From Dehalococcoidia bacterium (GTDB taxonomy: Bacteria > Chloroflexota > Dehalococcoidia > GIF9 > AB-539-J10): 64,000 nt of DNA. The stretch covers positions 63,843 to 127,842 of the forward strand of contig JAUVZB010000001.1 of assembly GCA_030602785.1 (NCBI GenBank), given 5' to 3'. Positions 20,703 to 40,869 of the stretch are shown in pieces. How positions within the stretch are numbered: the first letter of the stretch is position 1; the number at the start of each line of letters is the position of its first letter. The notes below the pieces were generated by a model. The model was given only the letters and a program-made list of their open reading frames with translations, was not told where the DNA came from and searched no databases. The position numbers were made by a program, and so were the translations under genes.

Positions 20703-20775
20703 TGGGCAGTACTGGACTTGAACCAGTGACCTCTGCGATGTCAACGCAGCGCTCTAACCACTGAGCTAACCGCCC
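20703..20775 (-). tRNA. tRNA-Val (anticodon GAC)
   Basis: Reverse complement is GGGCGGTTAGCTCAGTGGTTAGAGCGCTGCGTTGACATCGCAGAGGTCACTGGTTCAAGTCCAGTACTGCCCA. All four stems pair, with anticodon loop TTGACAT. Confidence 0.9.
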
Positions 20776-20900
20776 TTGGTCGCGATTTTAGCAGAAGGCC
20801 GTAGCTACGTCAATCGTTGCGGACTCTGGATTCGTTCGTGGGCAGCCGCGCCGGCGTGGCGTGCTACCATAGGCCCGTCCCCTCGTGCGGGTTCAAGCTG

Positions 20901-21323
20901 ATGAGCAGGCAACCGTTTGAGATGGTCGCCCACACCGCGGACATCGGTGTCCGTATTCACGGCGGCGACATGGAGGAACTGCTTGTCAACGCGGCGCATG
21001 CCCTGTATTCCATCCTGTTACGCGCCACCAACCTGACGGAGCGAGTTGAGCGTGTCGTCACGGTAGACTCGCCCGATGAGGAGGCTCTGCTGGTCGACTG
21101 GCTCAACGAACTCATCTACCTGTTCGACGCCGAGCGGCTTGCCTTCTCGAGATTTCAAGTTGAGCAACTCACTGAGTGCCGTCTTCAGGCACGCTGCTTC
21201 GGTGAGCGCATTGGCAGCGCCCGGCACGAGGTGCTGCGTGAAGTCAAAGCCGCGACGTATCACATGGCACACATTCACCACGCGGCTGACGGTTACACGG
21301 CTCAAGTGATACTGGACGTATAG
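20901..21323 (+). CDS. archease (RtcB activator)
   Basis: 140 aa from the ATG at 20901: MSRQPFEMVAHTADIGVRIHG..., typical of the archease family. Immediately upstream of rtcB. Confidence 0.8.
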   Translation: MSRQPFEMVAHTADIGVRIHGGDMEELLVNAAHALYSILLRATNLTERVERVVTVDSPDEEALLVDWLNELIYLFDAERLAFSRFQVEQLTECRLQARCFGERIGSARHEVLREVKAATYHMAHIHHAADGYTAQVILDV

Positions 21324-21332
21324 GGGCGCACT

Positions 21333-22778
21333 ATGGCGGAACTCCGGAGACTGGATGAGCATCGGTGGGAAATACCGACGAGTTACAAACCTGGCATGCG
21401 TGTTCCCGGTCTCGTCTACGCAAGCGACTCGATGATCGAAAGCATCGAACGTGACCAGGCGCTTGAGCAGGTTGCCAACGTCGCATTCCTGCCGGGAATA
21501 GTGGGGCAGTCGATGGCGATGCCTGACATTCACTGGGGCTATGGCTTTCCTATCGGCGGAGTCGCGGCGACGACCGTCAAGGGAGGAGTAATCTCCCCCG
21601 GCGGTGTTGGCTACGACATCAACTGCGGAGTGAGGCTGCTGCGTAGCGACCTGACCGTTGCGGACGTTCTGCCCCGACTGTCACAGCTCCTGGAAAGGCT
21701 CTTCCACAACGTTCCCTCGGGAGTCGGCTCAAGGGGCAGAATGAAGCCTTCACAGCGGGATATCTCGCGCATCCTGGTTGAAGGCGCAGCCTGGGCAGTG
21801 AAACAGGGCTTTGGCAGCCGGGACGACCTTGCCGCGACCGAGGACGGTGGATGCATCTCCGGAGCCGATCCTTCAGCTGTGAGCGAACGCGCGCTGACGC
21901 GCGGCCTGCCGCAGGTTGGAAGTCTGGGTTCCGGTAATCACTTCCTTGAGATACAGGTTGTCCGCGATATCTTCGAGCCGGAGACCGCCTCCGCGATGGG
22001 CATAGAAAGGGAAGGACAGGTCCTCGTACTCATTCACACGGGCTCGCGCGGCTTTGGCCACCAGGTGTGCACTGACCATCTCCGGGTCATGGAGCGGGCG
22101 GTATCCCGCTATGGCATAGTCCTGCCTGACCGGCAACTGGCCTGTGCGCCAATCACATCGACTGAAGGCCGGCAATACCTGGCCGCCATGCGCTGTGCAG
22201 CAAACTATGCGTGGTGCAATAGACAGTGCATTGCACACTGGGTAAGAGAGTCATTCGCGGAGGTATTCGGCATCTCACAGGAGAGGCTCGCGCTGCGCCA
22301 GGTGTACGACGTTGCGCACAACATCGCGAAGATAGAGAGGCATTCGGTCGAGGGAAGAGAGACGGAGGTCTGCGTCCATCGGAAGGGGGCAACCCGGGCC
22401 TTTCCCGCAGGGCATCCCGCGCTGAGTGAGCGATACCGGACAGTCGGGCACCCGGTCCTGATTCCGGGCGACATGGGGCGGTCCTCATACATTGCGGTCG
22501 GGACAGAACTCGCCATGCGAGGCACGTTTGGCTCTACCTGCCACGGCGCGGGACGGCTCATGAGCCGCAGCGCCGCTCGCAGGGCTATCCGGGGACAGGA
22601 CGTGGCTGACGCCCTGCGACGCCGGTCCATCTCAGTCCGCACTGCCGATGTGGCGGCACTGGCGGAAGAGGCCTCTCAAGCCTACAAAGACATCTCGGAC
22701 GTCATGGATGTGGTCCAGGGAGCGGGGATCTGCAGGCGGGTGGCTCGAGCCGAGCCCCTGGGCGTTATCAAGGGCTGA
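21333..22778 (+). CDS. rtcB: RNA-splicing ligase RtcB
   Basis: 481 aa with the metal/GTP motifs MPDIHWGYGFPIGG, GYDINCG and HNHAG-like regions. Confidence 0.9.
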   Translation: MAELRRLDEHRWEIPTSYKPGMRVPGLVYASDSMIESIERDQALEQVANVAFLPGIVGQSMAMPDIHWGYGFPIGGVAATTVKGGVISPGGVGYDINCGVRLLRSDLTVADVLPRLSQLLERLFHNVPSGVGSRGRMKPSQRDISRILVEGAAWAVKQGFGSRDDLAATEDGGCISGADPSAVSERALTRGLPQVGSLGSGNHFLEIQVVRDIFEPETASAMGIEREGQVLVLIHTGSRGFGHQVCTDHLRVMERAVSRYGIVLPDRQLACAPITSTEGRQYLAAMRCAANYAWCNRQCIAHWVRESFAEVFGISQERLALRQVYDVAHNIAKIERHSVEGRETEVCVHRKGATRAFPAGHPALSERYRTVGHPVLIPGDMGRSSYIAVGTELAMRGTFGSTCHGAGRLMSRSAARRAIRGQDVADALRRRSISVRTADVAALAEEASQAYKDISDVMDVVQGAGICRRVARAEPLGVIKG

Positions 22779-22966
22779 CGAAGCCGCCTTCTCGAGGGGG
22801 CACGTGGTGTTTGAGGGGAGAGTCGCCCGGATGGCCCTGGCGGGTGGCCCGCTCCGACTCCATGCCGGCAACCCAACTGCGGACGCTGGCGGTGCTCAAG
22901 AAACAAGTTGCCGCTGCCCGCCCCACCGGCACCTCGCGAGACGAGCCCTGCGCCCGGGATGCGTTC

Positions 22967-24004
22967 CTAGCTCAGGATGTCTGTCAGAGACACGTTAGTT
23001 CTCACCAGCTGCGTCAACATGTCCATCTTTCCGACGTCATCCTTGACAAGCAATGGGTCGATGCTTTCGATCTGCGACGCCGTGTGGTACGTGTCGAACG
23101 GTACCAGCAGCAGAGGGATGTTCCTGTCGGACGCCTTCGAGATGATGTTCGCCGACGGCAGGACGTTGTTGGTCAGGATGATACCCGCCGAGTTGCTCTC
23201 GACAGCCGCGAGTACGAGATCGCTCCTGTCGCCTCCGGTGATGACCAGTTTGCCCTCTTTCTTGAAGAGAGGGTTCTGGAGGGCGGCATTGGTGGACATC
23301 GCTCCAACCATGATTGCGTTGACCTTGTGATTGAGGCCCTCCTCACCGGCGATAACCTTGGCCAGCAAGCGCTCTGCGAGGTGCCCGACCGATAGTTTCG
23401 TGAGTTCGGCCTCAAAGGGCACAACGCCGAGGACCTTCACACCAAGAGCGGTGATGTCTGCCAGATGAGTGCTCTTGTATTCTTCAAGGTTGCGGACCTT
23501 GTTGATAATGACGCCTGCGAAATCGACGCCCTTGATGTCAACGTAGCGCATTGCGAAAGCCAGCTGGTCAAGTATCATGCTCTCGCTGCCACCGACCACC
23601 AGCACCAGGCGCGCACTCAGCTGAGCCGCCAGAGCCATCGAGTCGAGGTTGATCGAGGCGCCATAGGAGAGTGTCTCGCCTCCCTCGACGAAGACTGTTT
23701 CCTTGCCTTCTGCCGCGGCCGCCAGCATCTCGCCCAGCTTGACCTTCATGCTCTGAGCATCGTACATGTACTTCAACTTCGCGTGCTCGAAGCCCAGGGT
23801 CATGTCCTCGGGCTTCCCTTCCAACTCGAAGACGTTGGTCATCAAGGCCGCATCGTAGTCCCAGAGCCTCTTCTTGCGGTAGAGCAGCCGGTCGCCAAGC
23901 GGCTTCATATACCCGGACGGCTTGCCAACCGCTCTTGCCATGCCGACTATCAAGCTGGTCTTGCCGGCGCTCTTGTGCGTTGAGCCCACAACTATGGTCT
24001 TCAT
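22967..24004 (-). CDS. standalone phosphotransacetylase-N-terminal-like regulatory domain protein (BioD/CobQ-like P-loop plus DRTGG domain)
   Basis: 345 aa. N-terminal VGSTHKSAGKTS P-loop. ITGGDRSDLVLAA matches the DRTGG motif of the E. coli Pta N-terminal domain. There is no acetyltransferase catalytic domain. Confidence 0.6.
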   Translation of the reverse strand: MKTIVVGSTHKSAGKTSLIVGMARAVGKPSGYMKPLGDRLLYRKKRLWDYDAALMTNVFELEGKPEDMTLGFEHAKLKYMYDAQSMKVKLGEMLAAAAEGKETVFVEGGETLSYGASINLDSMALAAQLSARLVLVVGGSESMILDQLAFAMRYVDIKGVDFAGVIINKVRNLEEYKSTHLADITALGVKVLGVVPFEAELTKLSVGHLAERLLAKVIAGEEGLNHKVNAIMVGAMSTNAALQNPLFKKEGKLVITGGDRSDLVLAAVESNSAGIILTNNVLPSANIISKASDRNIPLLLVPFDTYHTASQIESIDPLLVKDDVGKMDMLTQLVRTNVSLTDILS

Positions 24005-24008
24005 CAGG

Positions 24009-26132
24009 CTACGCCTCCATAGATTCTCTCAGCAGGATTCTCACATCAACTGCCTTGACACCCTCTCCATGGTCATACACAACCAGGGGGTTGACCTCAA
24101 TATCCGAGATTGCAGCGCAGTTCCTGAGCACCGACCCTACCTTGATAATGGAACTGGCCACCTGGTCGATATCCTTCCGCGCCTCACCCCGAACGCCAAG
24201 AAGCAGAGGATATGAGTTAATCTGACCAATCATATTCAGCGTTTCCTCACGGCTCAGAGGAAACGCCCGGAAGGCTATGTCCTTCAACACCTCGACGTAG
24301 ATACCACCGAGGCCGAACATCACGGTGGGTCCGAAGGAGCCGTCCTGGCGGGCGCCTACTATGACTTCTACTCCCGGACGAACCATCTCGTCCACCTGTA
24401 TGCCTTCGATAGCCGCGTCTGCCTTGTACGCCCGGCAGTTGCGCAGGATAGCCTCGTATGCGTCTAGCACCTCTCTCTCGTTCTCGAGGTCCAGCGCAAC
24501 TCCGCCTGCGTCGCTCTTGTGCAGTATGTCGCTGGATACCACCTTCATAACCACGGGATATCCGATCTCCCCGGCATATCTGACCGCCTCACTGGTGTTG
24601 TGGGCTATCCGACTTTGCGGGGTCACGATGCCTGCAATGCGCATCACCTCTTGCGCCTCATGGGCAAGCAGGAAGTGCCTGGCATCCGCTCTTGCCCTGG
24701 CCACAATCCTGTCGATTGCGATAGCGTCGATATCTGCCTTCTCGTCGCCGGCAAACTGGGTGCTCTTGTTACGGTAGTCCGTATACAGAGCACCCAGGAA
24801 CGACGTCATCTCATAGACATCGGGGAAGACGGGGATGCTCTTCAACTTGAGTTCCCGAATGCTCTGCTCCACCTCCGCGCCACCAAAGAGCGAGAACACA
24901 ATTGGCTTCACCGACTTGTACTCGGCGTATCGGCTCTCGGCAATCGCGCCGAACCTATCGGCATCGAAATTGGCGGTCTGACAACCCAGGCAGGCAACAG
25001 CATCGATGCTGTCATTCGCGAGGGCTACACCGAGCGCCTTGTCGTAGTCATCCGGACTCGCGCTGCCCGTGATATCCACCGGGTTCTTGGCCGAGCCGAA
25101 TGATGGCATGACGCACTCGAACGATTTCTTCAACTCTGCCACATCATCTGACAAGTTGACGCCGTATTTCTCGCAGGCATCCGCGGTGAGAACGCCAATT
25201 CCACCTCCGTTGGTAATGACGACGACGTCCTCGCCGGTTGGTGTGGGTGCATCCGGGAGGAACTTGCACCAGTTCAGGGCCTCCTGGATGCTCTCGGCCC
25301 GAATCGCGCCACACTGCCGCATCACATCGTCGAAGACCTTGTCCTCGCCGGCAAGTGAGCCTGTGTGAGACGCGGCGGCCTGGGCGCCTCGCGTGGAGCG
25401 TCCGGACTTGATGACTACGACAGGTTTCTTTCGTGTCGTCTTCTTCAGAACCTCAACGAGCCTCTCCCCCGACTTCACGCCTTCGAGGTACATCAGCACG
25501 ACTCTTGAATCGTCCTGGCAGGTCAGGTACTCAAGCAGGTCGGTCTCATCCACGTCCGACTTGTTGCCAACCGATATCATGGCAGACAGGCCGATGCCTT
25601 CAACCTTGGTTTTGCCAATCATCGCGATGCCGATGGCGCCGCTCTGCGTGATGATTGCGACATTACCCCTTTTCACGTCACTCGGACCGAAAGTCGCGTT
25701 AAGCGAAGCAGACGCCGAGTACAATCCGAATACATTCGGGCCAACCACACGGACGCCGTGTTCACGTGCGTAGTTCGCTATCTTCCGTTCCTCCGCAGTG
25801 TTGCCAATCTCCGAGAACCCGGAAGTGATGATGATTGCGAACTTGACGCCCTTTCGGGCGCATTCCTCCACAGCGCTGAAAGTAATAGCGGCTGGGACCA
25901 CAAGCACGGCCACGTCAACCGGGCCGTCCAACTCCTCCATGTCCCCGTACACCTGGAGACCCAGCAGCTTGCCGCCCCGCGGGTTGACAGGGTAGATTCT
26001 TCCCCCGTAGCCACCCGCTACGATGTTCTCCACCACCCGGTAGCCAATCTTGCCTCTTGTCTGGGACGCCCCGATTATGGCAATGCCCCTTGGCTCGAAG
26101 AGGCACTTCATGTTGGCTTCGCTATCTTTCAC
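24009..26132 (-). CDS. ADP-forming acetyl-CoA synthetase (acetate--CoA ligase), fused alpha+beta
   Basis: 707 aa. CoA-binding N-terminus (IAIIGAS...GYRV), succinyl-CoA-synthetase-like ligase domain, C-terminal ATP-grasp. Confidence 0.85.
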   Translation of the reverse strand: MKDSEANMKCLFEPRGIAIIGASQTRGKIGYRVVENIVAGGYGGRIYPVNPRGGKLLGLQVYGDMEELDGPVDVAVLVVPAAITFSAVEECARKGVKFAIIITSGFSEIGNTAEERKIANYAREHGVRVVGPNVFGLYSASASLNATFGPSDVKRGNVAIITQSGAIGIAMIGKTKVEGIGLSAMISVGNKSDVDETDLLEYLTCQDDSRVVLMYLEGVKSGERLVEVLKKTTRKKPVVVIKSGRSTRGAQAAASHTGSLAGEDKVFDDVMRQCGAIRAESIQEALNWCKFLPDAPTPTGEDVVVITNGGGIGVLTADACEKYGVNLSDDVAELKKSFECVMPSFGSAKNPVDITGSASPDDYDKALGVALANDSIDAVACLGCQTANFDADRFGAIAESRYAEYKSVKPIVFSLFGGAEVEQSIRELKLKSIPVFPDVYEMTSFLGALYTDYRNKSTQFAGDEKADIDAIAIDRIVARARADARHFLLAHEAQEVMRIAGIVTPQSRIAHNTSEAVRYAGEIGYPVVMKVVSSDILHKSDAGGVALDLENEREVLDAYEAILRNCRAYKADAAIEGIQVDEMVRPGVEVIVGARQDGSFGPTVMFGLGGIYVEVLKDIAFRAFPLSREETLNMIGQINSYPLLLGVRGEARKDIDQVASSIIKVGSVLRNCAAISDIEVNPLVVYDHGEGVKAVDVRILLRESMEA

Positions 26133-28125
26133 GCGGTGGCACCTCTGTAAACAGCATGCTCATCTCGTAGACGCCCTCCGCAGCGCGCTTCTCGAGGTCA
26201 AACCCCATCGGCTCAAATAGGTGGAGCATAGGTTTGTTCTCTACGAGCACCTCGGCGGTGAAGCCCAACAGACCGTGTCGCTTGGCCAACAATGTGAGAT
26301 AAGAAAGGAGTTCTGTCCCGATACCCGTATTATGGTACTCGTCTTTGGCTACAACCGCAACCTCGGCGGTGTGCGTTGCTTCGTCGATCCCGTACAGCCC
26401 CACTCCAACGATTTCCTCGGTCTCACCGTGGCGAATCGAGGCAAGGATGACAATCTCCCTCGTGTAATCGATTACGACAAACTCCTGCAGGCGTTCATGG
26501 GGCATGTCCTTCCGAACGGACATGAAACGACGGAACATGCTCTGGTCGGAAAGGGCGTAGAAGAAGTCCTTGAGCAACGGCTCATCGGTTATTCGCACGG
26601 GCCTCAGCAGGAGCTCAAGCGAGTCCCGGGTGGTTCGGTGTGTTTCCAACTCCTCGGGGTATTCACCACGACGACCAGGGATGAAGGCCTGGTCCATGTA
26701 GATGAGAGTTCTCTTCTTCGCCTCCCGTATGAGCCACGGCCGGAACTTCGGATGCGCCAGTGCGATGAGCTCCATGGCGCGCTCCCGGATGTTCTTCCCG
26801 TGCAGGTAGGCGATGCCGTACTCCGTCACCACGTAGTACACGTCGCCCCTGTTGAGTGTGACCCCTGCCCCCTCACTGATGGACGGCACAATGCGGGACA
26901 CTTCTCCGTTGCACGCGGTGGAACGCAGCGCAAGGATTGTCTTGCCGTTGGGAGCCAGGAGTGCACCACGCATGAAGTCGTAGTGACCGCCGATGCCGCT
27001 GTAGAACCTGCCGCCAATCGACTCCGCCGTGGCCTGCCCCGTAAGGTCAATCTCCAGAGCGCTGTTGATCGCGACCATGTTCTCGTGTTGCGCGATGACA
27101 AGCGGGTTGTTGGTATAGTCTACGGTGCGGAATTCAACAGAAGGATTGTCGTCGAGGTAGTCGTAGGTTTCGGTCTTCCCCATGCAGAAGGTGGCAACCG
27201 TCTTGCCGCGGTCGATGTTCTTGCGGGAATTGTCGATGGCGCCCCGCTTCATCAGCTCGACGATGCCATCAGAGAGCAACTCCGTATGCACTCCAAGGTG
27301 TCGCCGGTCGATGAGTTTGCCGAGGACTGCGTTGGGAACGTTGCCGTAGCCGACCTGTATGGTATCGCCATCCTGAACGAGCCGGGCCACGTAGCGGCCG
27401 ATTGACTCGACGACTTCGCTGTCCTCCTCCCCGACTCCTCGACGATACTCAAGGATAGGCTCATTGTGCCCTATTATGTAATCTACATCGCCTATGTGAA
27501 TAAAGCTATCTCCGTGAATGCGTGGCATGTGCTGGTTCGCCTGGGCGATGACCACTGACGCTTGCTCGACTGCAGCCTTCACCATGTCCACGCTGACACC
27601 AAGGCTCATATAGCCGTGCCGATCCGGCATGGACACCTGAATGAGGGCCACATCGATCGGAATCACGCCGCGCCGAAACAGCCGTGGAATCTGCGACAGC
27701 GAAATCGGGGTGTAGTCTGCCACACCTCTGTTCACCGCGTCGCGAGTACTCTCGCCCAGAAAGAAGGAGTTGTGGCGGAAGTTGCGTTTGAATTTGTCGT
27801 CCGCATAGGGCGCAAGCCCGAGCGTCCAAAGGTGAATCACCTCGGCGTCGAAGAACCCCTTCGGGTGCGACGACACGTACTCAATCAACGCCTTCACGAG
27901 ATACTGCGGTTCGCCGCATCCTGACGCGATGAAGATGACATCACCCCTGTGGATACGAGCGAAAAGCCTGTTCTCCGACGCGAACTTCTGAGGATAGGCA
28001 GACTTCAGCTCTTCGAGAACTCCGTTCGCTTGATTCTCCATTGAATTGCCTTGCTGGACAGACACCACGCTCCGGTAGGGCAACTCGCCCCGACCGGTGA
28101 CTGGGTGGGGGCTGTCACACGCCAC
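26122..28125 (-). CDS. acetyl-CoA hydrolase/transferase-family CoA-transferase fused to a C-terminal GNAT acetyltransferase domain
   Basis: 667 aa. The first roughly 490 aa resemble the 4-hydroxybutyrate/acetate CoA-transferase family. The last roughly 170 aa (LQEFVVIDYTREIVILASI...GIGTELLSYL...) have a GNAT fold. The start may be the internal ATG at 28041. Confidence 0.7.
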   Translation of the reverse strand: MACDSPHPVTGRGELPYRSVVSVQQGNSMENQANGVLEELKSAYPQKFASENRLFARIHRGDVIFIASGCGEPQYLVKALIEYVSSHPKGFFDAEVIHLWTLGLAPYADDKFKRNFRHNSFFLGESTRDAVNRGVADYTPISLSQIPRLFRRGVIPIDVALIQVSMPDRHGYMSLGVSVDMVKAAVEQASVVIAQANQHMPRIHGDSFIHIGDVDYIIGHNEPILEYRRGVGEEDSEVVESIGRYVARLVQDGDTIQVGYGNVPNAVLGKLIDRRHLGVHTELLSDGIVELMKRGAIDNSRKNIDRGKTVATFCMGKTETYDYLDDNPSVEFRTVDYTNNPLVIAQHENMVAINSALEIDLTGQATAESIGGRFYSGIGGHYDFMRGALLAPNGKTILALRSTACNGEVSRIVPSISEGAGVTLNRGDVYYVVTEYGIAYLHGKNIRERAMELIALAHPKFRPWLIREAKKRTLIYMDQAFIPGRRGEYPEELETHRTTRDSLELLLRPVRITDEPLLKDFFYALSDQSMFRRFMSVRKDMPHERLQEFVVIDYTREIVILASIRHGETEEIVGVGLYGIDEATHTAEVAVVAKDEYHNTGIGTELLSYLTLLAKRHGLLGFTAEVLVENKPMLHLFEPMGFDLEKRAAEGVYEMSMLFTEVPPRER

Positions 28126-28133
28126 AGCTGGTG

Positions 28134-28559
28134 CTAGTCCCGAATCTTCGGTAGTTCAAGTACCACGAGTGTGATTATCGTCACCACGAGCGCCAGGAGA
28201 TAGAGGCCGGACCCTGCGGCAATACCGATACCCGCAGTCACCCAGATGGAGGCCGCAGTCGTCAGCCCCGCAACATCCCCACCACGGGCTCCCCGAAAGA
28301 TGACGCCCGCCCCCAGGAAACCCACGCCCGTGACGATTCCTGCGGCGACGCGCGAGACATCCGCCCCCGCGAATCCGAAGAGAGACGCCGCGGTGAAAGC
28401 CGCCGCACCAACGGCTATCAGGACATGAGTCCTGAGGCCGGCCACCTTCCCTCTGGCCTCACGCTCATAGCCGACGGCGGAGGCGAGGACCGTCGCGACG
28501 ACAAGCCGCACAATCAAGTCGGGCCACATGGCCGCCGTGTCTGCGCTTCCTGGAATCAC
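28134..28559 (-). CDS. MgtC/SapB-family membrane protein
   Basis: 141 aa with 4 TM helices and the AVGYEREARGK motif. Confidence 0.7.
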   Translation of the reverse strand: MIPGSADTAAMWPDLIVRLVVATVLASAVGYEREARGKVAGLRTHVLIAVGAAAFTAASLFGFAGADVSRVAAGIVTGVGFLGAGVIFRGARGGDVAGLTTAASIWVTAGIGIAAGSGLYLLALVVTIITLVVLELPKIRD

Positions 28560-28589
28560 TCAATTCTCCCGATTTCGAATCCTGTCGCC

Positions 28590-30257
28590 TCAATCGGCGA
28601 AGACTGCGCCGCTACTGGCAGAGGTCACCTTCTCAGCATATCGTTTGAGGTAACCTGAGGTCACGCGTGGCTCGAAGGGCGGCAGTTCCGCCAGCCTTCT
28701 GCCGATTTCGTCATCGCTCAACGCCACGTCCAGCTTATGAGCGGGGATATCGATTCGCATAGTGTCGCCATCGCGCAGGACGGCGATGGGCCCCCTCGCG
28801 GCAGCCTCGGGAGATACGTGCCCGATGGCTGCACCGCGCGTCGCTCCAGAGAAACGGCCGTCGGTGATGAGTGCGACTGCCTTGTCCATGCCCATTCCTG
28901 AGAGCAGCGACGTGGGGGTCAGCATCTCACGCATTCCCGGACCACCCCTTGGGCCTTCATTGCGAATGACAATCACGTCTCCCGACTTGAAAGCGCCCTG
29001 CATGATTGCCTCGGTTGCCAATTCCTCTGAATCAAATACGCGGGCAGGGCCCTCATGCAGCATCATCTCAGAGGAAACAGCTGCGCTCTTCACAACCGCA
29101 CCTTCCGGCGCAACATTGCCAAACAGCATGGAAAGGCCACCCGTGGCCTCATATGGGGCTGAAACGCTACGAATGACATCTCTATCCTTCACAGAGAAAT
29201 CTCTGACGAGTTTTCCTACGCTCTTTCCGGACACGGTAGATGCATCCGCGTTGAGGTGACTCGATATCTCGTTCATGACGGCGTGGATACCACCCGCTGT
29301 GTTGAGGTCCTCCAAGTGATGATGCCCCGCGGGACTCATCCTGCACAGATGAGGCACACTCTGGCTGATCTCGTTCAACCATGAAAGAGGATAGTGAACT
29401 CCGGCTTCGTGAGCGATTGCCGTCAGATGCAGCACTGAATTCGTGCTGCCGCCAAGCGCCACGTCAACGGCGAAAGCATTGTAGATAGACTGCTCATTGA
29501 TGATATCCCGGGGCTTCAGGTCCTGTTCCAGAACCTTCATTATCTGCTCGCCTGTCCTGAACGCAAGATCCAGCCGCTGGCCGTAAGTCCCGGGAATTGT
29601 GCCATTGCCCGCTAATGCCATTCCCAGCGCCTCAGTCATGCAGTTCATCGTGTTTGCGGTGAACATGCCTGAACAGCTTCCACACCCCGGGCACGCGACT
29701 CTTGCCATCTCCTCAAGCTGCTCCTCAGACATGTCTCCCCTGACCGTCCTGCCAACGGCCTCGAAAAGGTTGCTGAGGTCAATCGTGCGGCACTCGTTGT
29801 CCACCATCACGTGTCCTGCCATCATGGGCCCGCCCGACACGAAGATGGACGGGATGTTCATTCTGGCGGCAGCCATGAGCATGCCCGGCACTATCTTGTC
29901 GCAGCTGCAGATGAATACGAGTGCATCAAAGGCGTGCGCCTGTGCAACGACCTCTGCGGAATCCGCTATCAGCTCCCTACTCGGCAAGCTGTACTTCATT
30001 CCAGGATGATTCATGGCGATGCCATCGCAGACCCCTATGGTATTTGCTTCGAAGGGCACGCCACCTCCGGAGCGAATGCCCTGCTGCACAGCTTTGGATA
30101 CCGAATCCAGGTGCATATGCCCGGGTATGATGTGGTTGTAGCTGTTGATGACACCTATGAAAGGTCTATCCCAGTCTCCCTCCGTGCATCCCAGGGCATA
30201 CAAGAGAGACCTGTGTGGAGCTCGCTCCGGTCCACGTTTCACGACATCGCTTCTCAA
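28590..30257 (-). CDS. ilvD: dihydroxy-acid dehydratase
   Basis: 555 aa. [12 protein letters not shown] and the Fe-S Cys motifs. TTG start with GAGGAGG 7 nt upstream. Confidence 0.9.
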
Positions 30258-30613
30258 CTTGGAGCCTCCTCGCCAGCGATTTGGTCTACGGAAGCCAATT
30301 CTACATCAGCCCCACCGCCCCATCAACACGAATGATGAACAGACCGTTGACCGCGGGCCGCTCTCGGTCTTAAGATGTGTCCGAGTGGTCGTGGGGCGAT
30401 AGTTTGTGCCGTGCGGAGGCTGCGTGGCGCATTGGACATCTTTCCTGTGGAGTCTTCCCTCACAAAAAGGGTGTGCAAAGGGACCACGGCGGAAGAAGCA
30501 CACTGGTCTTCGCGATGCCGCCTCGGGTGCTGGTCCCAACAGTCAGCCGAGAGGCTGTTTGCGCGGGTTGAAACTCTGCTGCGAGAATTGGTATTGGTGG
30601 GACAAGCGGCGCC

Positions 30614-30702
30614 CTGGTGGCCCTGAGCACGCGGTGACAGTGTACGTTGGAGGCAGCTAGGCTTTCTGTTAGAACTGGTGGCCCTGAGCACGCGGTGACA
30701 GT
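30614..30702. repeat. perfect 28-bp direct repeat pair (CTGGTGGCCCTGAGCACGCGGTGACAGT) at 30614-30641 and 30675-30702, 61 bp start-to-start
   Basis: Read directly from the sequence. The pair lies in the ilvD/DUF2520 divergent intergenic region, just upstream of an extended -10-like element. Confidence 0.85.
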
Positions 30703-30733
30703 TCGAGGGCGACAGGCCGGGCTCCTCTGCCAA

Positions 30734-30743
30734 TGGATATAAT
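30734..30743 (+). promoter_or_regulatory. extended -10-like element TGGATATAAT upstream of the DUF2520-panB genes
   Basis: Perfect TATAAT at 30738-30743 preceded by TG. There is no good -35. About 100 nt upstream of the 30845 ATG. Confidence 0.35.
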
Positions 30744-30844
30744 CCGACAGTCGCCCGGGGAAGAGGAGACTAGATAGATACCACTTGGAATGCGCCATCC
30801 GCTCCACCAGAGGAACGCAGTTCAAAGAAGGGGGAAAAGCAGAC

Positions 30845-32632: not shown

Positions 32633-32684
32633 GAACTCGGCCTGTCCGTTGAAGCGCGGCAACCCAAAGCTGGATGCGAAGAAA

Positions 32685-32711
32685 GGCTGGGCTCCCGCGA
32701 GGGAGCCCAGC
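32685..32711. terminator. bidirectional intrinsic terminator between convergent panB and dctM
   Basis: GGCTGGGCTCCC-GCGA-GGGAGCCCAGCC forms an 11-12-bp perfect stem, flanked by AAAG and TTCTTT. Confidence 0.7.
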
Positions 32712-32741
32712 TTCTTTGTCACGTGTGCGACGGATCAAACG

Positions 32742-34073
32742 TTACATCAGACTCGGCAGCCAGAGGATAATCTGGGGGAAGGCAATACAGAGAGCCATCG
32801 CACCGAGAATAATGAACACGTAGGGAAACATACCGCGGATAATGTGCCCCGTGGTAATACCAAGGGCGGGATCCGCAGCCCCTCTCACATAGAAGAGCGC
32901 GTACGCAAAAGGTGGCGTCATGAAGGACATCTGCAGGTTGACGCAAATCATCATTGCGAACCACAAAGGATCAAATCCTGCCTCTGCAGCGATTGGCGTC
33001 ACGATGGGTACCATGATGAAGATAATGCCCAACCAGTCGATGAAGAAACCCAGGACGAAGCAGATGAACATGATGACGGCGAAGACACCCCACTTGCCCC
33101 CCACTGCATCGAGCACGAAGGCGCTCACAACCTTGTCGCAATTTGCCCGCATGAACACGCCCACAAACGCGAATGCCAGCGCGCCGATAAGCAGGACCAT
33201 GCCTGCCACCCGCACTGTGGTCATGGCGGTCCTTGCGAGAACCGCCCGGTTGAGCCTGCCATAGGCCAGGGCAAGCAAGATGGTAGCCATGGCCCCGACA
33301 CCTGCCGCCTCGGTCGGAGAAGCTATGCCGAAGAAGATGCTTCCCAGCACCGCAAGGATGAGCACTACCGGCGGCAGCATGGACTTGAGCAGCTTTCCTG
33401 CCTTCACGCCAAACGGAACCTGCCGGTCCGCCAGAGGCACGGGCGGCGCCAGTTGGGGCCGAACCAGGCACAGGACAATGACGTAGATGCAGTACATGGC
33501 GGACAGAAGGAAACCCGGCAGGAAAGCTGCGAAAAAGAGCTTCCCGACAGACAGTCCGGCCATGGGGCCGTACACCACGAGCATGATGCTCGGAGGTATG
33601 AGAATACCCAGGGAACCACCTCCACACACAGCGCCTGCTGCAAGAGACCTGTCGTAGCCCCTGTTGATCATCGCGGGGAGCGCTATGAGCGCCAGCATGG
33701 TGACCGACGCGCCGATGATTCCGACACATGCGGCCACAACCGTGCCGATAAGGATGGTAGTCACCGCAAGCCCACCCCGCAAGCCACCGAGCCACAGGTA
33801 GAGCGCGTCATACATCCCTTCAGCCACCCCCGAGTGCTCCAGCATCGTCCCCATGAAGACAAACAGTGGCACGGCGAGCAGGATGTAGTTGTTCATCGTA
33901 CTGAAGAACCGCCCGTAATAGAGCTCGGACGAGATGTTCGGGCCAAACAGGAGCAGGGACATGACGATTCCCACACCACCGATTGACAGCGCAAGCGGAT
34001 AGCCGAGGAGCACCCCCACAAGGATGCCACCCAGCATCAGAATGGCGACCAGTCCGGGACTCAGATCAATCAT
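32742..34073 (-). CDS. dctM: TRAP transporter large permease (copy 1)
   Basis: 443 aa, about 12 TM helices, with DctM-family motifs. Confidence 0.85.
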   Translation of the reverse strand: MIDLSPGLVAILMLGGILVGVLLGYPLALSIGGVGIVMSLLLFGPNISSELYYGRFFSTMNNYILLAVPLFVFMGTMLEHSGVAEGMYDALYLWLGGLRGGLAVTTILIGTVVAACVGIIGASVTMLALIALPAMINRGYDRSLAAGAVCGGGSLGILIPPSIMLVVYGPMAGLSVGKLFFAAFLPGFLLSAMYCIYVIVLCLVRPQLAPPVPLADRQVPFGVKAGKLLKSMLPPVVLILAVLGSIFFGIASPTEAAGVGAMATILLALAYGRLNRAVLARTAMTTVRVAGMVLLIGALAFAFVGVFMRANCDKVVSAFVLDAVGGKWGVFAVIMFICFVLGFFIDWLGIIFIMVPIVTPIAAEAGFDPLWFAMMICVNLQMSFMTPPFAYALFYVRGAADPALGITTGHIIRGMFPYVFIILGAMALCIAFPQIILWLPSLM

Positions 34074-34670: not shown

Positions 34671-35798
34671 TCAGCCCCCGTACAGGGACTTCCAAGTTTC
34701 CCAGAAGGCCGTGTGCGAGGCCAGCATCTCGGCCATGGCGGGATCCTCGGCGGCAAGCTCATCCATGTACTCGGCCGCTATCTCCAGGAACGCCTCGTCG
34801 ATTGAAGCGGGTAGCAACTCGACGGTGACTCCGAAGTCCTTGAAGTCCTGGATGGCCTTCTCATTGGCCATGTGCAGGCGGGTGTGGTAGCTGACGGCCT
34901 CAGCGCGGCCGCAGTCCTCCACGATAACCTTCAAGTCATCGGGGAGCTCATTCCACTGGTCGGTGTTGATGAGCAACTGGTAGACCTCGGTCGGAGCGCG
35001 TGTCGGCGAGAGGTAGTAGTACTTGCCGACTTCCTGCAGGCCCATGCTCCAGTCGAACGCCGGGTTCGAGCACTCGTACGCGTCGATAAGGCCGCGATGC
35101 ATCGCCTCGAAGACCTCACCCAGAGGCATATATACGGCGCCCACACCCATCCGGTTGAGCACCACGCCACCATCGCCGGACGCACGCATCTTGAGTCCCT
35201 CTAGGTCCTCCGGACCCTTCAATTCCTTATCGCAGTGAATCCAGCCTTCAGGCAGGCCATGACAGCCCGCGCCCGCGATGTCAATGAAGTTGAACCCATA
35301 TTCAGGATACCACTTGTTGGCCAGGTCGGCGCCAACGGCGCGATGCCAGATCAGGTGAGGGATCGGCGGCATGCCGCCAACCCTCTGTGACATCATGCTC
35401 CCGAACCTGATATCACCGACCATGTACGACCCCCCTCCGGCACAGAAGTCAAGCACGCCGCTGCTTACCGCCTTGTATTCCTCGGTGGCAGGACACACCG
35501 CGCCGGCCGGTTTCGCATCCCAGACCAACCGTCCCTGGCTGGCCTCGCTAATCCTCTCGCTGAGTATCACCAGGCTTTCGTGAACCGGCATGCCTGAAGG
35601 AAGTGCAGCCTGGCCGACCCAGTTGATAACCTCCGCCGCGGGAGCCGCAGGGGCCTCTTCTTCCTCCGCAGGGGCTGCTTCCTCCTCTTCAGCGGCTGGA
35701 GCAGCCGCTTCCTCGGCAGCACAGCCAATGGCGCCAATACCGAGCACCATCACCAGCGCTGTCAGTACCAACAGTAGACGCTTGGACATCTTTCTCAC
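34671..35798 (-). CDS. dctP: TRAP transporter DctP-family substrate-binding lipoprotein (copy 1)
   Basis: Lipobox LGIGAIGC followed by a long AEEAAAPAAEEEEAAPAEEEE linker, then a DctP-type fold. Confidence 0.85.
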   Translation of the reverse strand: MRKMSKRLLLVLTALVMVLGIGAIGCAAEEAAAPAAEEEEAAPAEEEEAPAAPAAEVINWVGQAALPSGMPVHESLVILSERISEASQGRLVWDAKPAGAVCPATEEYKAVSSGVLDFCAGGGSYMVGDIRFGSMMSQRVGGMPPIPHLIWHRAVGADLANKWYPEYGFNFIDIAGAGCHGLPEGWIHCDKELKGPEDLEGLKMRASGDGGVVLNRMGVGAVYMPLGEVFEAMHRGLIDAYECSNPAFDWSMGLQEVGKYYYLSPTRAPTEVYQLLINTDQWNELPDDLKVIVEDCGRAEAVSYHTRLHMANEKAIQDFKDFGVTVELLPASIDEAFLEIAAEYMDELAAEDPAMAEMLASHTAFWETWKSLYGG

Positions 35799-35918
35799 CT
35801 CCTGTAAGAATATCTATGCCAACGGCGAATACCGCTTGCAGCAGCAATTCGCCGAATGATGCCCTCTCGCCGACAGCTAACTGATTCAGGCGCACCTGGC
35901 AAACAAAAAGACTCCTCC

Positions 35919-35949
35919 AGTATAGGAAGGCACGTTTGCAGATGTCAAT
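35919..35949 (-). promoter_or_regulatory. sigma70-like promoter for TRAP operon 1: -35 TTGACA (35949-35944), 19-bp spacer, -10 TATACT (35924-35919)
   Basis: Read on the reverse complement. The same architecture recurs upstream of TRAP operon 2. Confidence 0.45.
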
Positions 35950-36070
35950 AGCTGGCGGGAAGATTCTCACAGCTAAGTGCGCGTGTTCGTATGCGAATAT
36001 CTGGCATCGAAATCCAGAACAGCAGTCCAAGCGGGTCCGCCGCAGAAGTCCCTGTAGCCGGACGGCTCTT

Positions 36071-36157
36071 TGTCAGCCCGCCCGCGCGAGGCAAACGCTA
36101 TCTCGAATCCGCTGCCGCCGACACCGCCGACTGTCAGCCGGCCCACGCGAGGCAGAC
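36071..36157. repeat. 26-bp imperfect direct repeat pair (TGTCAGCCCGCCCGCGCGAGGCAAAC and TGTCAGCCGGCCCACGCGAGGCAGAC, 23/26 identical) at 36071-36096 and 36132-36157, 61 bp start-to-start
   Basis: Read directly from the sequence. Lies between the TRAP2 terminator and the TRAP1 promoter. Confidence 0.75.
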
Positions 36158-36163
36158 ACAAGA

Positions 36164-36193
36164 ACGGGGGCAACCTGCTGCGGTTGCCCCCGT
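36164..36193 (-). terminator. intrinsic terminator after dctM copy 2
   Basis: ACGGGGGCAACC-TGCTGC-GGTTGCCCCCGT forms a 12-bp perfect stem, followed on the minus strand by TCTTGTGTCTG. Confidence 0.65.
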
Positions 36194-36219
36194 TGGGAAC
36201 TCTTGGAAGTGTGAATTTA

Positions 36220-37554: not shown

Positions 37555-38056
37555 AGCGCTCACCTCTTGCCAAGAAGTACAGGTCGCGCCAGAGTTGCGC
37601 AACACCCTGCAACAGAAGCAGCAGGATGCCGATGAATATCGCCGTCCTCATCGGCGCGAGGGGAGGATACCAGTACGTGATGACCGACTTCTCGCCGATG
37701 GCCCACGCGTGAACCATCCAGGAACCTGAGCTGTACGTGAGCACACCTATCACAGGTAAGAACAGCGCGAAGAAGCAAGCCACGTCGACGATTGCCCTAC
37801 CCCTCTCCGAAAACCGATTGTAGAGGACGTCCACGCGAACGTGACCCTTGCGCAACAGCACAAAGCCCCATGAGAGCGTGTACATCGCTGCCGCGAAGTG
37901 TATGGGCACCTCGAAGCCCCACATAGTAGGATGGTTGAACAAGTACCTCTGACCCACCTCGATACAGGTGAAAGAAATGGCGATCAAGAGGAACCAGCGC
38001 ATGCTGCGGCCCATCCATCCGTTCACGGAATCGACCAAGTGCACGAGTTTTTTCAC
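37547..38056 (-). CDS. dctQ: TRAP transporter small permease (copy 2)
   Basis: 169-aa paralog of 34066-34575. Confidence 0.8.
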   Translation of the reverse strand: MKKLVHLVDSVNGWMGRSMRWFLLIAISFTCIEVGQRYLFNHPTMWGFEVPIHFAAAMYTLSWGFVLLRKGHVRVDVLYNRFSERGRAIVDVACFFALFLPVIGVLTYSSGSWMVHAWAIGEKSVITYWYPPLAPMRTAIFIGILLLLLQGVAQLWRDLYFLARGERFD

Positions 38057-38148
38057 ATTAAGACACCTTACAGCCTCACTCCGGGCTTCCCAGCCCGGAG
38101 TGAGGCTCCATGAAGCACTAGTACCAGGTCAAAAACACAGCCGGGACA

Positions 38149-39267: not shown

Positions 39268-39296
39268 CTTTCACCTCCTATTATGATTCGAAACAT

Positions 39297-39318
39297 ACGT
39301 GTGCTGGTCGAACACACG
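39297..39318. promoter_or_regulatory. inverted repeat ACGTGTGctggtcgaaCACACG in the TRAP-2 leader (candidate operator or leader hairpin)
   Basis: 6-7-bp perfect arms with a 9-nt spacer, between the predicted promoter and the dctP-2 start. The TRAP-1 leader has an analogous GGCGAAT...ATTCGCC repeat. Confidence 0.3.
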
Positions 39319-39367
39319 GGACAATTCCAAGAGGTCCGTCCCACAAATGCGACCTCCCCCGCAGGAG

Positions 39368-39397
39368 AGTATACGAATCGTCCAACGCGAAAGTCAA
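39368..39397 (-). promoter_or_regulatory. sigma70-like promoter for TRAP operon 2: -35 TTGACT, 18-bp spacer, -10 TATACT
   Basis: Read on the reverse complement. Parallels the TRAP-1 promoter. Confidence 0.4.
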
Positions 39398-39600
39398 TAC
39401 TGCGTATGAACGGCCTCATCGCTTTCCAAGACCGCCTGGACCACGAACGTCCCCGCCGACTGCTGAACTATCTCCCTCTGCCAGCCGAGGAGATTTCTTC
39501 CCCGTAGCGTTTCAGTCATGCCTGCTTCACTCATGGGTCGAACGGCAGTAACACCGCGAGTGGCGCTTTCACAGGCTCCTCACCAGTGAATCCGCATGCA

Positions 39601-40863: not shown

Positions 40864-40869
40864 AGAACG

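What the first reader, a model, noticed from the sequence alone, without database searches (positions are those of the whole stretch)
22967..28125. Acyl-CoA module: CoA-transferase fused to GNAT, then an ADP-forming acetyl-CoA synthetase, then a standalone Pta-N-terminal regulatory-domain protein
The three genes are co-directional and tightly packed. The CoAT-GNAT stop and the ACD start overlap by about 10 nt, which suggests translational coupling. They lie downstream of ilvD-mgtC with gaps of 30 nt or less.

Protein lysine acetyltransferases of the Pat/PatZ type are fusions of an NDP-forming acyl-CoA synthetase-like domain with a GNAT domain, and actinobacterial versions place the GNAT first. 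Here the GNAT is the C-terminal domain of the upstream CoA-transferase and is immediately followed by a full ACD. That reads like a split, permuted Pat-like arrangement with an extra catalytic CoA-transferase.

The DRTGG/P-loop protein resembles the allosteric N-terminal domain of Pta, yet it sits beside ACD, the enzyme that replaces Pta-AckA. It may be a detached regulatory subunit for the ACD. This is inference.
Basis: partly seen in the sequence, partly recalled or inferred. Interest (0 to 1): 0.6.

Follow-up and report, generated by a model that had tools for sequence, protein, structure and literature searches.

The report
Conserved acetyl-CoA module with Pat-type acetyltransferase
Three tightly packed genes (a CoA-transferase fused to a Pat-type protein acetyltransferase domain, an intact ATP-forming acyl-CoA synthetase, and a stand-alone copy of the regulatory half of phosphotransacetylase) form an operon conserved across many anaerobic bacteria and archaea, apparently never studied, and probably controlling the acetyl-CoA/acetate branch point.

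Summary
On the minus strand lie CoAT-GNAT (26122-28041), ACD (24009-26132) and a BioD-like + DRTGG "PtaN" protein (22967-24004).

The trio is a conserved module, not a local accident.
- Anchored on PtaN relatives in metagenomes, 44 of 46 evaluable loci have ACD directly upstream. 28 of 31 have the full CoAT-GNAT > ACD > PtaN order.
- It occurs in Dehalococcoidia, Syntrophales, Bipolaricaulota, Methanomassiliicoccales and Thermoplasmatota.
- Anchored on CoAT-GNAT, ACD is the commonest neighbour. In some loci an AMP-forming Acs sits nearby instead.

The GNAT domain is Pat-type. Its best solved relatives are PatZ, SlPatA and mycobacterial Pat, and the catalytic Glu (PatZ E809) is kept.

"Split Pat" is only partly right. 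The ACD keeps both catalytic histidines in 84 of 84 relatives and is closer to real ACDs than to PatZ. The CoA-transferase keeps its Glu and its GXGGXXD motif. PtaN keeps an intact Walker A and has an invariant YRKKRLWDYD loop.

My best reading is an acetyl-CoA/acetate node module with built-in lysine-acetylation feedback and a nucleotide-binding regulatory subunit. I found no paper describing it. It is a new variant of a known kind, of moderate to high interest.

The parts
26122..28041 (-). CoAT-GNAT fusion gene. It is 639 aa from ATG 28041; the mechanical ORF extends to GTG 28125.
   Evidence: Pfam. Homologues are 639-640 aa and start at the equivalent Met. AF2 model has pLDDT 82.7 and pTM 0.70.
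26719..28002 (-). CoA-transferase part (AcetylCoA_hydro + AcetylCoA_hyd_C), of the 4-hydroxybutyrate CoA-transferase family.
   Evidence: PDB 9vag 2e-119 and 3eh7 2e-118, aligned over about 430 residues. Below the NCBIfam equivalog cut-off (295.9 vs 674.8), so the substrate is unassigned.
27280..27282 (-). Codon of the putative catalytic Glu of the CoA-transferase (HTE motif, residue 254 of the 639-aa protein).
   Evidence: Aligned to HTE of the 4HB-CoA transferases. Glu in 95 of 104 relatives, Asp in 8. The GXGGXXD motif (GIGGHYD) is also kept. Its identity as the catalytic residue rests on knowledge of the AbfT/AarC family.
26200..26613 (-). Pat-type GNAT domain.
   Evidence: Relatives with 36-39% identical GNATs include ACD-like+GNAT (type I Pat) proteins P0375 and P0386.
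26362..26364 (-). Codon of the GNAT catalytic Glu (residue 560), equivalent to PatZ E809.
   Evidence: Gap-free alignment to PatZ 726-827 places it on E809. The role of E809 is taken from PMC12184503. Glu in 102 of 108 relatives.
26140..26146 (-). SD-like AGAGGTG box, 7 nt upstream of the GTG start of ACD, lying inside the end of the GNAT coding sequence.
   Evidence: Sequence. Conserved in 8 Dehalococcoidia loci.
24009..26132 (-). ADP-forming acyl-CoA synthetase (ACD, fused alpha-beta). Start is GTG 26132 or ATG 26111.
25365..25367 (-). Codon of the ACD alpha-type phosphohistidine (SHTG).
   Evidence: His in 84 of 84 relatives. PatZ has Leu at this position (PMC12184503).
24519..24521 (-). 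Codon of the second (beta-type) active-site His of ACD (HKSDAGGV).
   Evidence: His in 84 of 84 relatives.
22967..24004 (-). Stand-alone PtaN-like protein (BioD-like P-loop domain + DRTGG domain, 345 aa).
23957..23965 (-). Walker A G-K-T of PtaN.
   Evidence: Invariant in 105 of 105 relatives and in alignment A1.
23852..23881 (-). Invariant YRKKRLWDYD loop of PtaN (residues 42-51).
   Evidence: Near-invariant in 105 sequences. It is the only segment of the AF2 model with pLDDT below 50 (residues 41-47).
28134..28559 (-). mgtC-family gene upstream. Lineage-specific neighbour, probably not part of the module.
   Evidence: Linked only in Dehalococcoidia loci.
28590..30257 (-). ilvD upstream. Lineage-specific neighbour.

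Best explanation
The three genes form a conserved operon that manages the acyl-CoA/acetate branch point in energy-limited anaerobes.

(1) The ACD is a working ADP-forming acyl-CoA synthetase. It catalyses acyl-CoA + ADP + Pi <-> acid + ATP + CoA.

(2) The N-terminal 445 residues of the first protein are a working family-I CoA-transferase. It moves CoA between acetate/acetyl-CoA and another short-chain acid.

(3) Its C-terminal Pat-type GNAT domain uses acetyl-CoA (or another acyl-CoA) to acylate a lysine on a partner enzyme of this node. The likely targets are ACD or PtaN here, and AMP-forming Acs in genomes where Acs takes the neighbouring position. This would give acyl-CoA-dependent feedback, as Pat and AcuA do for Acs. 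The CoA-transferase domain would take the place of the CoA-ester-binding regulatory domain of Pat.

(4) PtaN is a nucleotide-binding (BioD-like P-loop) + DRTGG partner of ACD. Its role would be analogous to that of the N-terminal allosteric domain of class II Pta.

Shown: the domain identities, the intact catalytic motifs, and the cross-phylum synteny. Inferred: the physical association, the acetylation target, the substrates, and the direction of flux.
For: Domains and motifs:
- Conservation among relatives: CoAT Glu 95/104, GNAT Glu (PatZ E809) 102/108, ACD His-alpha 84/84 and His-beta 84/84, PtaN GKT 105/105.

Synteny:
- PtaN-anchored: 44/46 loci have ACD directly upstream and 28/31 have the full triad in the same order.
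- CoAT-GNAT-anchored, in species-representative genomes: of 51 evaluable loci, 19 have ACD+PtaN directly downstream, 2 have them elsewhere in the locus, and 11 have a second ACD paralogue with both His.
- AMP-forming Acs lies near CoAT-GNAT in L018, L021, L030, L063, L077 and L026. In L018 it sits with a cNMP-binding protein and a SatP acetate channel.
- Every recurrent partner therefore interconverts acetate and acetyl-CoA.

Other support:
- The module is 65-70% identical between bacterial and archaeal phyla, which indicates strong selection.
- The junctions are tight and there is a conserved SD-like box.
- There is precedent for stand-alone PtaN-like proteins next to acetate-forming enzymes. 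DVU3031 lies beside pta-ack (PMC4481167). AF_1212 (PDB 2ioj) is numbered next to AF_1211, an acetate-CoA ligase (PMC8359953).
- GNAT-Acs regulatory complexes are known (PMC11910552, listed).
Against: - There is no experimental or co-purification evidence.
- No deacetylase gene recurs in the neighbourhoods.
- ACD is not a known Pat substrate.
- One third of the evaluable CoAT-GNAT loci (17/51) have neither ACD nor PtaN nearby.
- In Syntrophus aciditrophicus the nine ACD paralogues are each below 0.1% of transcripts, and ATP is made by Acs1 (PMC4992975). In that order ACDs are therefore not the main catabolic route. I did not establish which of the nine, if any, sits in such a module.
- Substrates are unassigned. 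All NCBIfam equivalog scores are below cut-off.
- GNAT domains can also acylate small molecules.
Confidence: 0.45

Rival explanations
1. Purely catabolic CoA-recycling pair. The CoA-transferase passes CoA from a longer or other acyl-CoA to acetate, and ACD then makes ATP from the acetyl-CoA. This is like the ASCT/succinyl-CoA synthetase cycle of anaerobic protists. On this view the GNAT domain is not a protein-regulatory acetyltransferase; it is a small-molecule or N-terminal acetyltransferase, or merely a structural CoA-binding appendage.
For: - Both catalytic machineries are intact.
- The CoAT domain is about 50% identical to characterised 4-hydroxybutyrate CoA-transferases.
- The hosts are fermenters, syntrophs and acetogens.
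- Association with either ACD or Acs would also fit a shared acetate/acetyl-CoA pool.
Against: - The closest solved and curated relatives of the GNAT are all protein lysine acetyltransferases of the Pat family. The catalytic Glu and the acetyl-CoA loop are conserved.
- Type I Pat proteins are among its nearest non-CoAT relatives.
- This view does not explain PtaN.
Confidence: 0.2
2. The ACD serves mainly in trans as the regulatory, acetyl-CoA-sensing domain of the GNAT, as in type II (GNAT-first) Pat, and not as an enzyme.
For: - The gene order GNAT > ACD mimics the type II domain order.
- The GNAT is Pat-type.
- PatZ aligns over the full ACD length at 262 bits.
Against: - Both active-site histidines are kept in 84/84 relatives, whereas PatZ has Leu245 at the first one (PMC12184503).
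- The ACD scores much higher against real ligases: 473 and 378 bits.
- The GNAT already has a fused CoA-ester-binding domain.
Confidence: 0.08
3. PtaN is an enzyme or an ATP-driven switch in its own right, not a passive allosteric subunit. It could be a BioD-like ATP-dependent carboxylate/phosphoryl-transfer enzyme, or a SIMIBI-type dimerising ATPase.
For: - Walker A GKT is invariant.
- From memory, not tested here: the E. coli Pta N-domain has lost the Walker lysine.
- The invariant flexible YRKKRLWDYD loop suggests a functional site.
Against: - No substrate can be proposed from sequence.
- The DRTGG domain is otherwise found in regulatory modules, namely CBS-pyrophosphatase and Pta.
- This is compatible with the best explanation rather than exclusive of it.
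Confidence: 0.2
4. The module acts on 4-hydroxybutyrate or another short-chain acid rather than on acetate/acetyl-CoA.
For: The best solved relatives are 4-hydroxybutyrate CoA-transferases and the ADP-forming 4-hydroxybutyrate-CoA ligase 8wzu. The best NCBIfam hit for the ACD is HydDutCoALig.
Against: - Scores are far below the equivalog cut-offs: 577 vs 1300 and 295.9 vs 674.8.
- 8wzu is favoured because it shares the fused alpha-beta domain order.
- The alternative neighbours are Acs with the ACAS_N domain and a SatP acetate channel.
Confidence: 0.15
5. The adjacency is fortuitous and there is no functional link.
For: Promoter and terminator scans are uninformative.
Against: 44/46 and 28/31 conservation of order across phyla. 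The junctions are 4-11 nt.
Confidence: 0.02

Closest known systems
Pat/PatZ (type I) and SlPatA (type II) bacterial protein lysine acetyltransferases
   Same: The GNAT domain is homologous (PatZ 7e-17, SlPatA 4e-12). The catalytic Glu (E809) and the acetyl-CoA phosphate loop are conserved. The GNAT is joined to a large CoA-ester-binding domain, and it lies near acetate-activating enzymes.
   Different: The fused domain is a family-I CoA-transferase with an intact active site, not a His-less ACD-like domain. A separate, catalytically intact ACD follows. This architecture is absent from the type I-V scheme (PMC12184503).
AcuA-AcsA (Bacillus subtilis) acetyltransferase/synthetase complex
   Same: The concept is the same: a GNAT encoded next to, and acting on, the enzyme that interconverts acetate and acetyl-CoA, giving acetyl-CoA-dependent feedback (PMC11910552).
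   Different: AcuA is a stand-alone GNAT of another subfamily and its target is AMP-forming Acs. Here the main partner is ADP-forming ACD, and no interaction has been shown.
N-terminal regulatory domain of class II phosphotransacetylase (E. coli/Salmonella Pta); stand-alone DVU3031; AF_1212
   Same: It has the same BioD-like + DRTGG architecture. It is encoded beside an acetyl-CoA-to-acetate enzyme: DVU3031 beside pta-ack (PMC4481167), and AF_1212 numbered next to the ACD AF_1211.
   Different: It is not fused to a PTA_PTB domain. It has an intact Walker A and a family-specific invariant YRKKRLWDYD loop. AF_1212 is only the DRTGG half.
ADP-forming acetyl-CoA synthetases (ckcACD1 4xyl; Nitrosopumilus 4-hydroxybutyrate-CoA ligase 8wzu)
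   Same: The domain set is the same and both active-site histidines are present.
   Different: Scores are below all NCBIfam equivalog cut-offs, so specificity is unknown. It is embedded in a triad with CoAT-GNAT and PtaN.
4-hydroxybutyrate CoA-transferase (AbfT family: 3gk7, 3eh7, 9vag)
   Same: About 50% identity over about 430 residues. The HTE Glu and the GXGGXXD motif are conserved.
   Different: It carries a C-terminal Pat-type GNAT domain. The Gln of GGQxDF is His in this lineage (His in 24 of 104 sequences, Gln in 80).

Membership tests
Pat/PatZ-type protein lysine acetyltransferase (GNAT types I/II) | GNAT domain of the Pat subfamily | tested here: met
   Best PDB hits are PatZ, SlPatA, Rv0998 and MsPat. 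NCBIfam Pat model 1.9e-19, though below the whole-protein cut-off.
Pat/PatZ-type protein lysine acetyltransferase (GNAT types I/II) | Catalytic Glu (PatZ E809) and acetyl-CoA phosphate loop (G-x-G) | tested here: met
   Gap-free alignment. Glu in 102/108 and G-I-G in at least 103/108 relatives.
Pat/PatZ-type protein lysine acetyltransferase (GNAT types I/II) | GNAT fused to a non-catalytic NDP-forming acyl-CoA-synthetase-like regulatory domain | tested here: not met
   The fusion partner is AcetylCoA_hydro/AcetylCoA_hyd_C. The adjacent ACD is a separate protein and keeps both His.
Pat/PatZ-type protein lysine acetyltransferase (GNAT types I/II) | Acetylates the active-site Lys of AMP-forming acyl-CoA synthetases | not testable with these tools
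   Only indirect evidence: Acs is the neighbour in 6 loci.
Family I CoA-transferase, acetyl-CoA hydrolase/4-hydroxybutyrate CoA-transferase type | Both Pfam halves at full length, and close similarity to solved members | tested here: met
Family I CoA-transferase, acetyl-CoA hydrolase/4-hydroxybutyrate CoA-transferase type | Catalytic Glu and GXGGXXD oxyanion motif | tested here: met
   The assignment of these residues as catalytic comes from established knowledge of AbfT/AarC.
Family I CoA-transferase, acetyl-CoA hydrolase/4-hydroxybutyrate CoA-transferase type | Reaches an equivalog cut-off that would name the substrate | tested here: not met
   TIGR03948 scores 295.9 against a cut-off of 674.8.
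ADP-forming acetyl-CoA synthetase (NDP-forming acyl-CoA synthetase superfamily) | CoA-binding, Succ_CoA_lig, Ligase_CoA_2 and ATP-grasp_5 domains | tested here: met
ADP-forming acetyl-CoA synthetase (NDP-forming acyl-CoA synthetase superfamily) | Two active-site histidines (SHTG and HKSD) | tested here: met
   84/84 each.
ADP-forming acetyl-CoA synthetase (NDP-forming acyl-CoA synthetase superfamily) | Acetyl-CoA specificity (equivalog score) | tested here: inconclusive
   TIGR02717 scores 492 against 567. HydDutCoALig scores 577 against 1300.
Class II Pta N-terminal domain (PtaN, BioD-like + DRTGG) | AAA_26 + DRTGG, homologous across the N-terminal half of Pta | tested here: met
Class II Pta N-terminal domain (PtaN, BioD-like + DRTGG) | Covalently linked PTA_PTB catalytic domain | tested here: not met
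   No PTA_PTB hit; the protein ends at 345 aa. It is therefore a stand-alone paralogue, not a Pta.
Class II Pta N-terminal domain (PtaN, BioD-like + DRTGG) | Allosteric control of the partner enzyme | not testable with these tools
   Synteny only.

The most novel reading that the evidence does not exclude
The triad is a physically coupled acyl-CoA-sensing switch and a new class of prokaryotic lysine acyltransferase.
- The fused, active CoA-transferase senses organic acids or makes the acyl-CoA donor in cis.
- The Pat-type GNAT then acylates a lysine of the invariant flexible YRKKRLWDYD loop of PtaN, or of ACD.
- The modified P-loop/DRTGG adaptor sets the activity or direction of the ATP-forming ACD.

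This would be a dedicated post-translational control circuit for substrate-level phosphorylation, shared by syntrophs, acetogens, Dehalococcoidia and methanogen-related archaea.
Probability: 0.15. Interest if true: 0.8.

Novelty: new variant of a known kind. Interest (0 to 1): 0.55.

Why it matters
Reversible lysine acetylation of acetate-activating enzymes is the best-understood case of protein acetylation control in bacteria. The current scheme has five KAT types, none with a CoA-transferase domain (PMC12184503). This family adds a widespread architecture: more than 8000 homologues were found, at 65-70% identity across bacterial and archaeal phyla.

The family is tied to ADP-forming ACD, an enzyme for which I know of no regulator (my knowledge, not tested here). 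It also gives stand-alone PtaN/DRTGG proteins a concrete, testable partner; these are currently annotated only as "DRTGG domain-containing".

The hosts live near the thermodynamic limit, so control of the acetyl-CoA-to-acetate ATP-yielding step is central to their energy budget.

Tried and rejected
- **Literature.** Ten full-text searches were made. They combined DRTGG, ADP-forming, GNAT, CoA-transferase, BioD-like, AF1211/AF1212, Syntrophus and the Pfam domain name. None returned a paper describing the CoAT-GNAT fusion or the triad. One query was rejected for syntax, and the AF1212 query returned only unrelated accession strings.
- **Promoters and terminators.** The scan of 22500-30800 found counts no higher than in shuffled sequence. 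Operon boundaries therefore cannot be set this way.
- **ilvD-mgtC as part of the module.** Rejected. They are linked only in the Dehalococcoidia relatives.
- **'Split Pat' with a non-catalytic ACD.** Rejected on histidine conservation and on relative scores.
- **4-hydroxybutyrate as substrate.** Considered because the best PDB hits for both enzymes are 4HB enzymes. Not adopted, because the equivalog scores are far below cut-off.
- **Recurrent deacetylase gene.** Neighbour clustering found none among the top clusters.
- **Acs or sirtuin in the window.** None was evident among the 57 large ORFs. Only part of the window was checked with Pfam.
- **AF2 models.** The models of PtaN and of CoAT-GNAT confirm the folds but cannot address complex formation.


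Full report
**1. What is in the sequence**

All genes of the finding are on the minus strand. In order of transcription they are:
- ilvD (28590-30257)
- an MgtC-family gene (28134-28559)
- a CoA-transferase-GNAT fusion (ORF 26122-28125)
- an ADP-forming acyl-CoA synthetase, ACD (24009-26132)
- a 345-aa AAA_26 + DRTGG protein (22967-24004)

Downstream, RtcB and archease converge on the other strand.

- AcetylCoA_hydro (1.9e-50), AcetylCoA_hyd_C (5.7e-64) and GNAT models (3e-9 and 3e-8) in the first protein.
- CoA_binding_2, Succ_CoA_lig, Ligase_CoA_2 and ATP-grasp_5 in the second.
- AAA_26 and DRTGG, with no PTA_PTB domain, in the third.

An identical contig exists in a public run (L001). The closest genome is a Dehalococcoidia MAG (L002, 92%), so the window is from Chloroflexota.

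**2. Start codons and junctions**

Homologues of the fusion are 639-640 aa and begin at the Met encoded at 28041. The 28-residue extension to GTG 28125 is therefore probably not translated, and the gap to mgtC is about 92 nt rather than 8 nt.

For ACD, GTG 26132 overlaps the upstream stop by 11 nt. It is preceded at 7 nt by AGAGGTG. The GTG, the SD-like box and an in-frame ATG at 26111 are all conserved in eight related loci.

The ACD stop and the PtaN start are 4 nt apart. Consensus promoter and terminator scans were no better than shuffled sequence.

**3. Is the trio a real unit?**

Yes. I made two independent scans.

*Anchored on the fusion protein, in one genome per species.* I located the other proteins with tblastn. 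The 51 loci with enough downstream sequence break down as follows:

| Neighbourhood | Loci |
|---|---|
| ACD + PtaN directly downstream | 19 |
| ACD + PtaN elsewhere in the locus | 2 |
| A more distant ACD paralogue, still with both histidines | 11 |
| PtaN only | 2 |
| Neither | 17 |

- In L018 that Acs sits with a cNMP-binding protein and a SatP-type acetate channel.
- Unsupervised clustering of all neighbours gave ACD (37 of 63 loci), PtaN (22), a Cytidylate_kin2-family protein (12) and Acs (9) as the only recurrent partners across lineages.

*Anchored on PtaN, in metagenome contigs.*
- 44 of 46 loci with at least 2.2 kb upstream have ACD directly upstream.
- 28 of 31 loci with at least 4.3 kb upstream have the complete CoAT-GNAT > ACD > PtaN order.

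*Taxa* carrying the module include Dehalococcoidia, Syntrophales/Smithellaceae, Bipolaricaulota, Methanomassiliicoccales, Thermoplasmatota and a bin labelled Woesearchaeota. The fusion protein stays 65-70% identical across these phyla.

The ilvD-mgtC linkage is confined to the Dehalococcoidia relatives. It is not part of the module.

**4. What each part is**

*GNAT domain.*
- Its best solved relatives are all protein lysine acetyltransferases of the Pat family: PatZ 9it0 (7e-17), SlPatA 4nxy/4u5y, Rv0998 4ava, MsPat and Sulfolobus Pat.
- The gap-free alignment to PatZ 726-827 puts Glu560 on PatZ E809, the catalytic residue, and G-I-G on the phosphate loop G822-G824 (PMC12184503).
- These residues are conserved in 102/108 (Glu) and at least 103/108 (loop) relatives.
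- In a search of 1.8 billion cluster representatives, the nearest relatives are other CoAT-GNAT proteins, small stand-alone GNATs, and genuine ACD-like + GNAT (type I Pat) proteins at 36-39% identity.

*CoA-transferase part.*
- It is about 50% identical over about 430 residues to 4-hydroxybutyrate CoA-transferases (9vag 2e-119, 3eh7).
- It keeps the HTE glutamate (95/104) and GXGGXXD.
- It scores far below any NCBIfam equivalog cut-off, so the substrate is open.

*ACD.*
- It aligns best with real ligases: 8wzu 473 bits and 4xyl 378 bits, against 262 bits for PatZ.
- It keeps both active-site histidines in 84 of 84 relatives. In PatZ the first one is Leu245, which abolishes ACD chemistry (PMC12184503).

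*PtaN.*
- It matches the N-terminal half of class II Pta over its full length (PRK05632, 2.3e-33).
- Walker A GKT is invariant (105/105).
- A YRKKRLWDYD loop is nearly invariant, yet it is the only low-confidence stretch of the model. That pattern is typical of an interaction or modification site.

**5. How it most likely works**

Every recurrent partner of the fusion protein interconverts acetate and acetyl-CoA: ACD, a second ACD paralogue, or AMP-forming Acs. PtaN is almost never found without ACD.

All four catalytic or nucleotide-binding centres are under selection. None of the parts looks like a degenerate sensor.

I therefore read the operon as an acetyl-CoA/acetate node module. ACD is the ATP-coupled engine. 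The CoA-transferase links it to other short-chain acyl-CoA pools. The Pat-type GNAT gives acyl-CoA-dependent lysine acylation feedback on the node's enzymes. PtaN is a nucleotide-binding partner of ACD, comparable to the allosteric N-domain of class II Pta.

Precedents:
- Pat/PatZ and AcuA act on Acs (PMC12184503; PMC11910552).
- The stand-alone AAA+DRTGG protein DVU3031 lies beside pta-ack (PMC4481167).
- AF_1212 is numbered next to AF_1211, an acetate-CoA ligase. Their adjacency is inferred from the consecutive locus tags.

The physical interactions, the acetylation target, the substrates and the direction of flux are all inference. My confidence in this reading is 0.45.

**6. Caveats and rivals**

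- A purely catabolic CoA-recycling pair, like the ASCT/SCS cycle, would explain CoAT + ACD. It would not explain the Pat-type GNAT or PtaN.
- PtaN might itself be an ATP-using enzyme or switch.
- The true substrates might be 4-hydroxybutyrate or another acid. Both enzymes have 4HB enzymes as their best solved relatives, but the scores are far below cut-off.
- In S. aciditrophicus the nine ACD paralogues are poorly expressed and Acs1 makes the ATP (PMC4992975). In Syntrophales, ACD-based modules may therefore be ancillary or regulatory rather than the main catabolic route.
- One third of the evaluable fusion genes have neither ACD nor PtaN nearby.

**7. Comparison with what is known, and novelty**

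The published scheme of bacterial GNAT lysine acetyltransferases has five types (PMC12184503):
- Types I and II have ACD-like regulatory domains.
- Type III has cAMP-, ACT- or NADP-binding domains.
- Types IV and V have no regulatory domain.

A CoA-transferase partner is not among them. Ten full-text searches found no description of this fusion or of the triad. Public annotation calls the proteins only 'GNAT family N-acetyltransferase' and 'DRTGG domain-containing protein'.

Each domain is a clear member of a known family. The fusion fails the defining architecture of Pat types I/II, and PtaN fails that of Pta because it has no PTA_PTB domain.

I rate it a new variant of a known kind. It is a widespread, strongly conserved and uncharacterised module. 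It would interest people working on protein acetylation and on energy conservation in anaerobes, but it is not a new principle.

Noticed in passing
P0318, P0332 (960-967 aa): A longer variant of the fusion carries an N-terminal extension of about 330 aa with a 4Fe-4S dicluster ferredoxin domain ahead of CoAT-GNAT. This suggests a redox-linked version of the same protein.
   Followed up: partly
L019:10031-10741, L022, L024, L028, L033, L034, L060, L036, L038, L039, L027, L032, L055: In Syntrophales/deltaproteobacterial loci a 236-aa Cytidylate_kin2-family P-loop protein recurs. It follows PtaN, or it sits between CoAT-GNAT and a second ACD paralogue. It may be a fourth, lineage-specific member of the module.
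   Followed up: partly
L018:7986-13290: In another Dehalococcoidia genome the fusion gene is followed by a stand-alone cNMP-binding protein, an AMP-forming Acs and a SatP/YaaH acetate channel, instead of ACD-PtaN. Mycobacterial Pat has its cNMP domain fused.
   Followed up: partly
L029:200-2083 and 3174-5057: Two tandem copies of CoAT-GNAT lie in a Methanotrichaceae MAG, with no ACD or PtaN in the locus.
   Followed up: no
L032:11092-14927 (also L027): Here PtaN follows CoAT-GNAT without an ACD. It is followed by a 150-aa protein with no Pfam hit and by PHA synthase PhaE/PhaC-like genes.
   Followed up: no
L072:8001-12765: In one Dehalococcoidia MAG the whole module gives broken, overlapping tblastn segments. 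It is either a decaying copy or an error-rich assembly.
   Followed up: no
window 23852-23881 (PtaN residues 42-51): The invariant YRKKRLWDYD motif coincides with the only low-confidence (pLDDT below 50) segment of an otherwise confident AF2 model.
   Followed up: partly
window 34671-46069 (-): An organic-acid utilisation cluster. It holds two DctP genes, DctM and a DctQ-like TRAP transporter gene. It also holds a LarA-type lactate racemase, three GlcD-like FAD oxidases and a galactarate/altronate-dehydratase-like protein.
   Followed up: partly
window 32649-33986 (+) and 32-34 kb / 36-38 kb: A 445-aa ORF has no Pfam hit. Two 2-kb bins have unusually high AT skew, 0.23-0.25.
   Followed up: no
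window 20703-22778: tRNA-Val(GAC) lies on the minus strand. An archease-RtcB RNA ligase pair on the plus strand converges on the PtaN gene. The RtcB neighbourhood is conserved in the Dehalococcoidia relatives.
   Followed up: no
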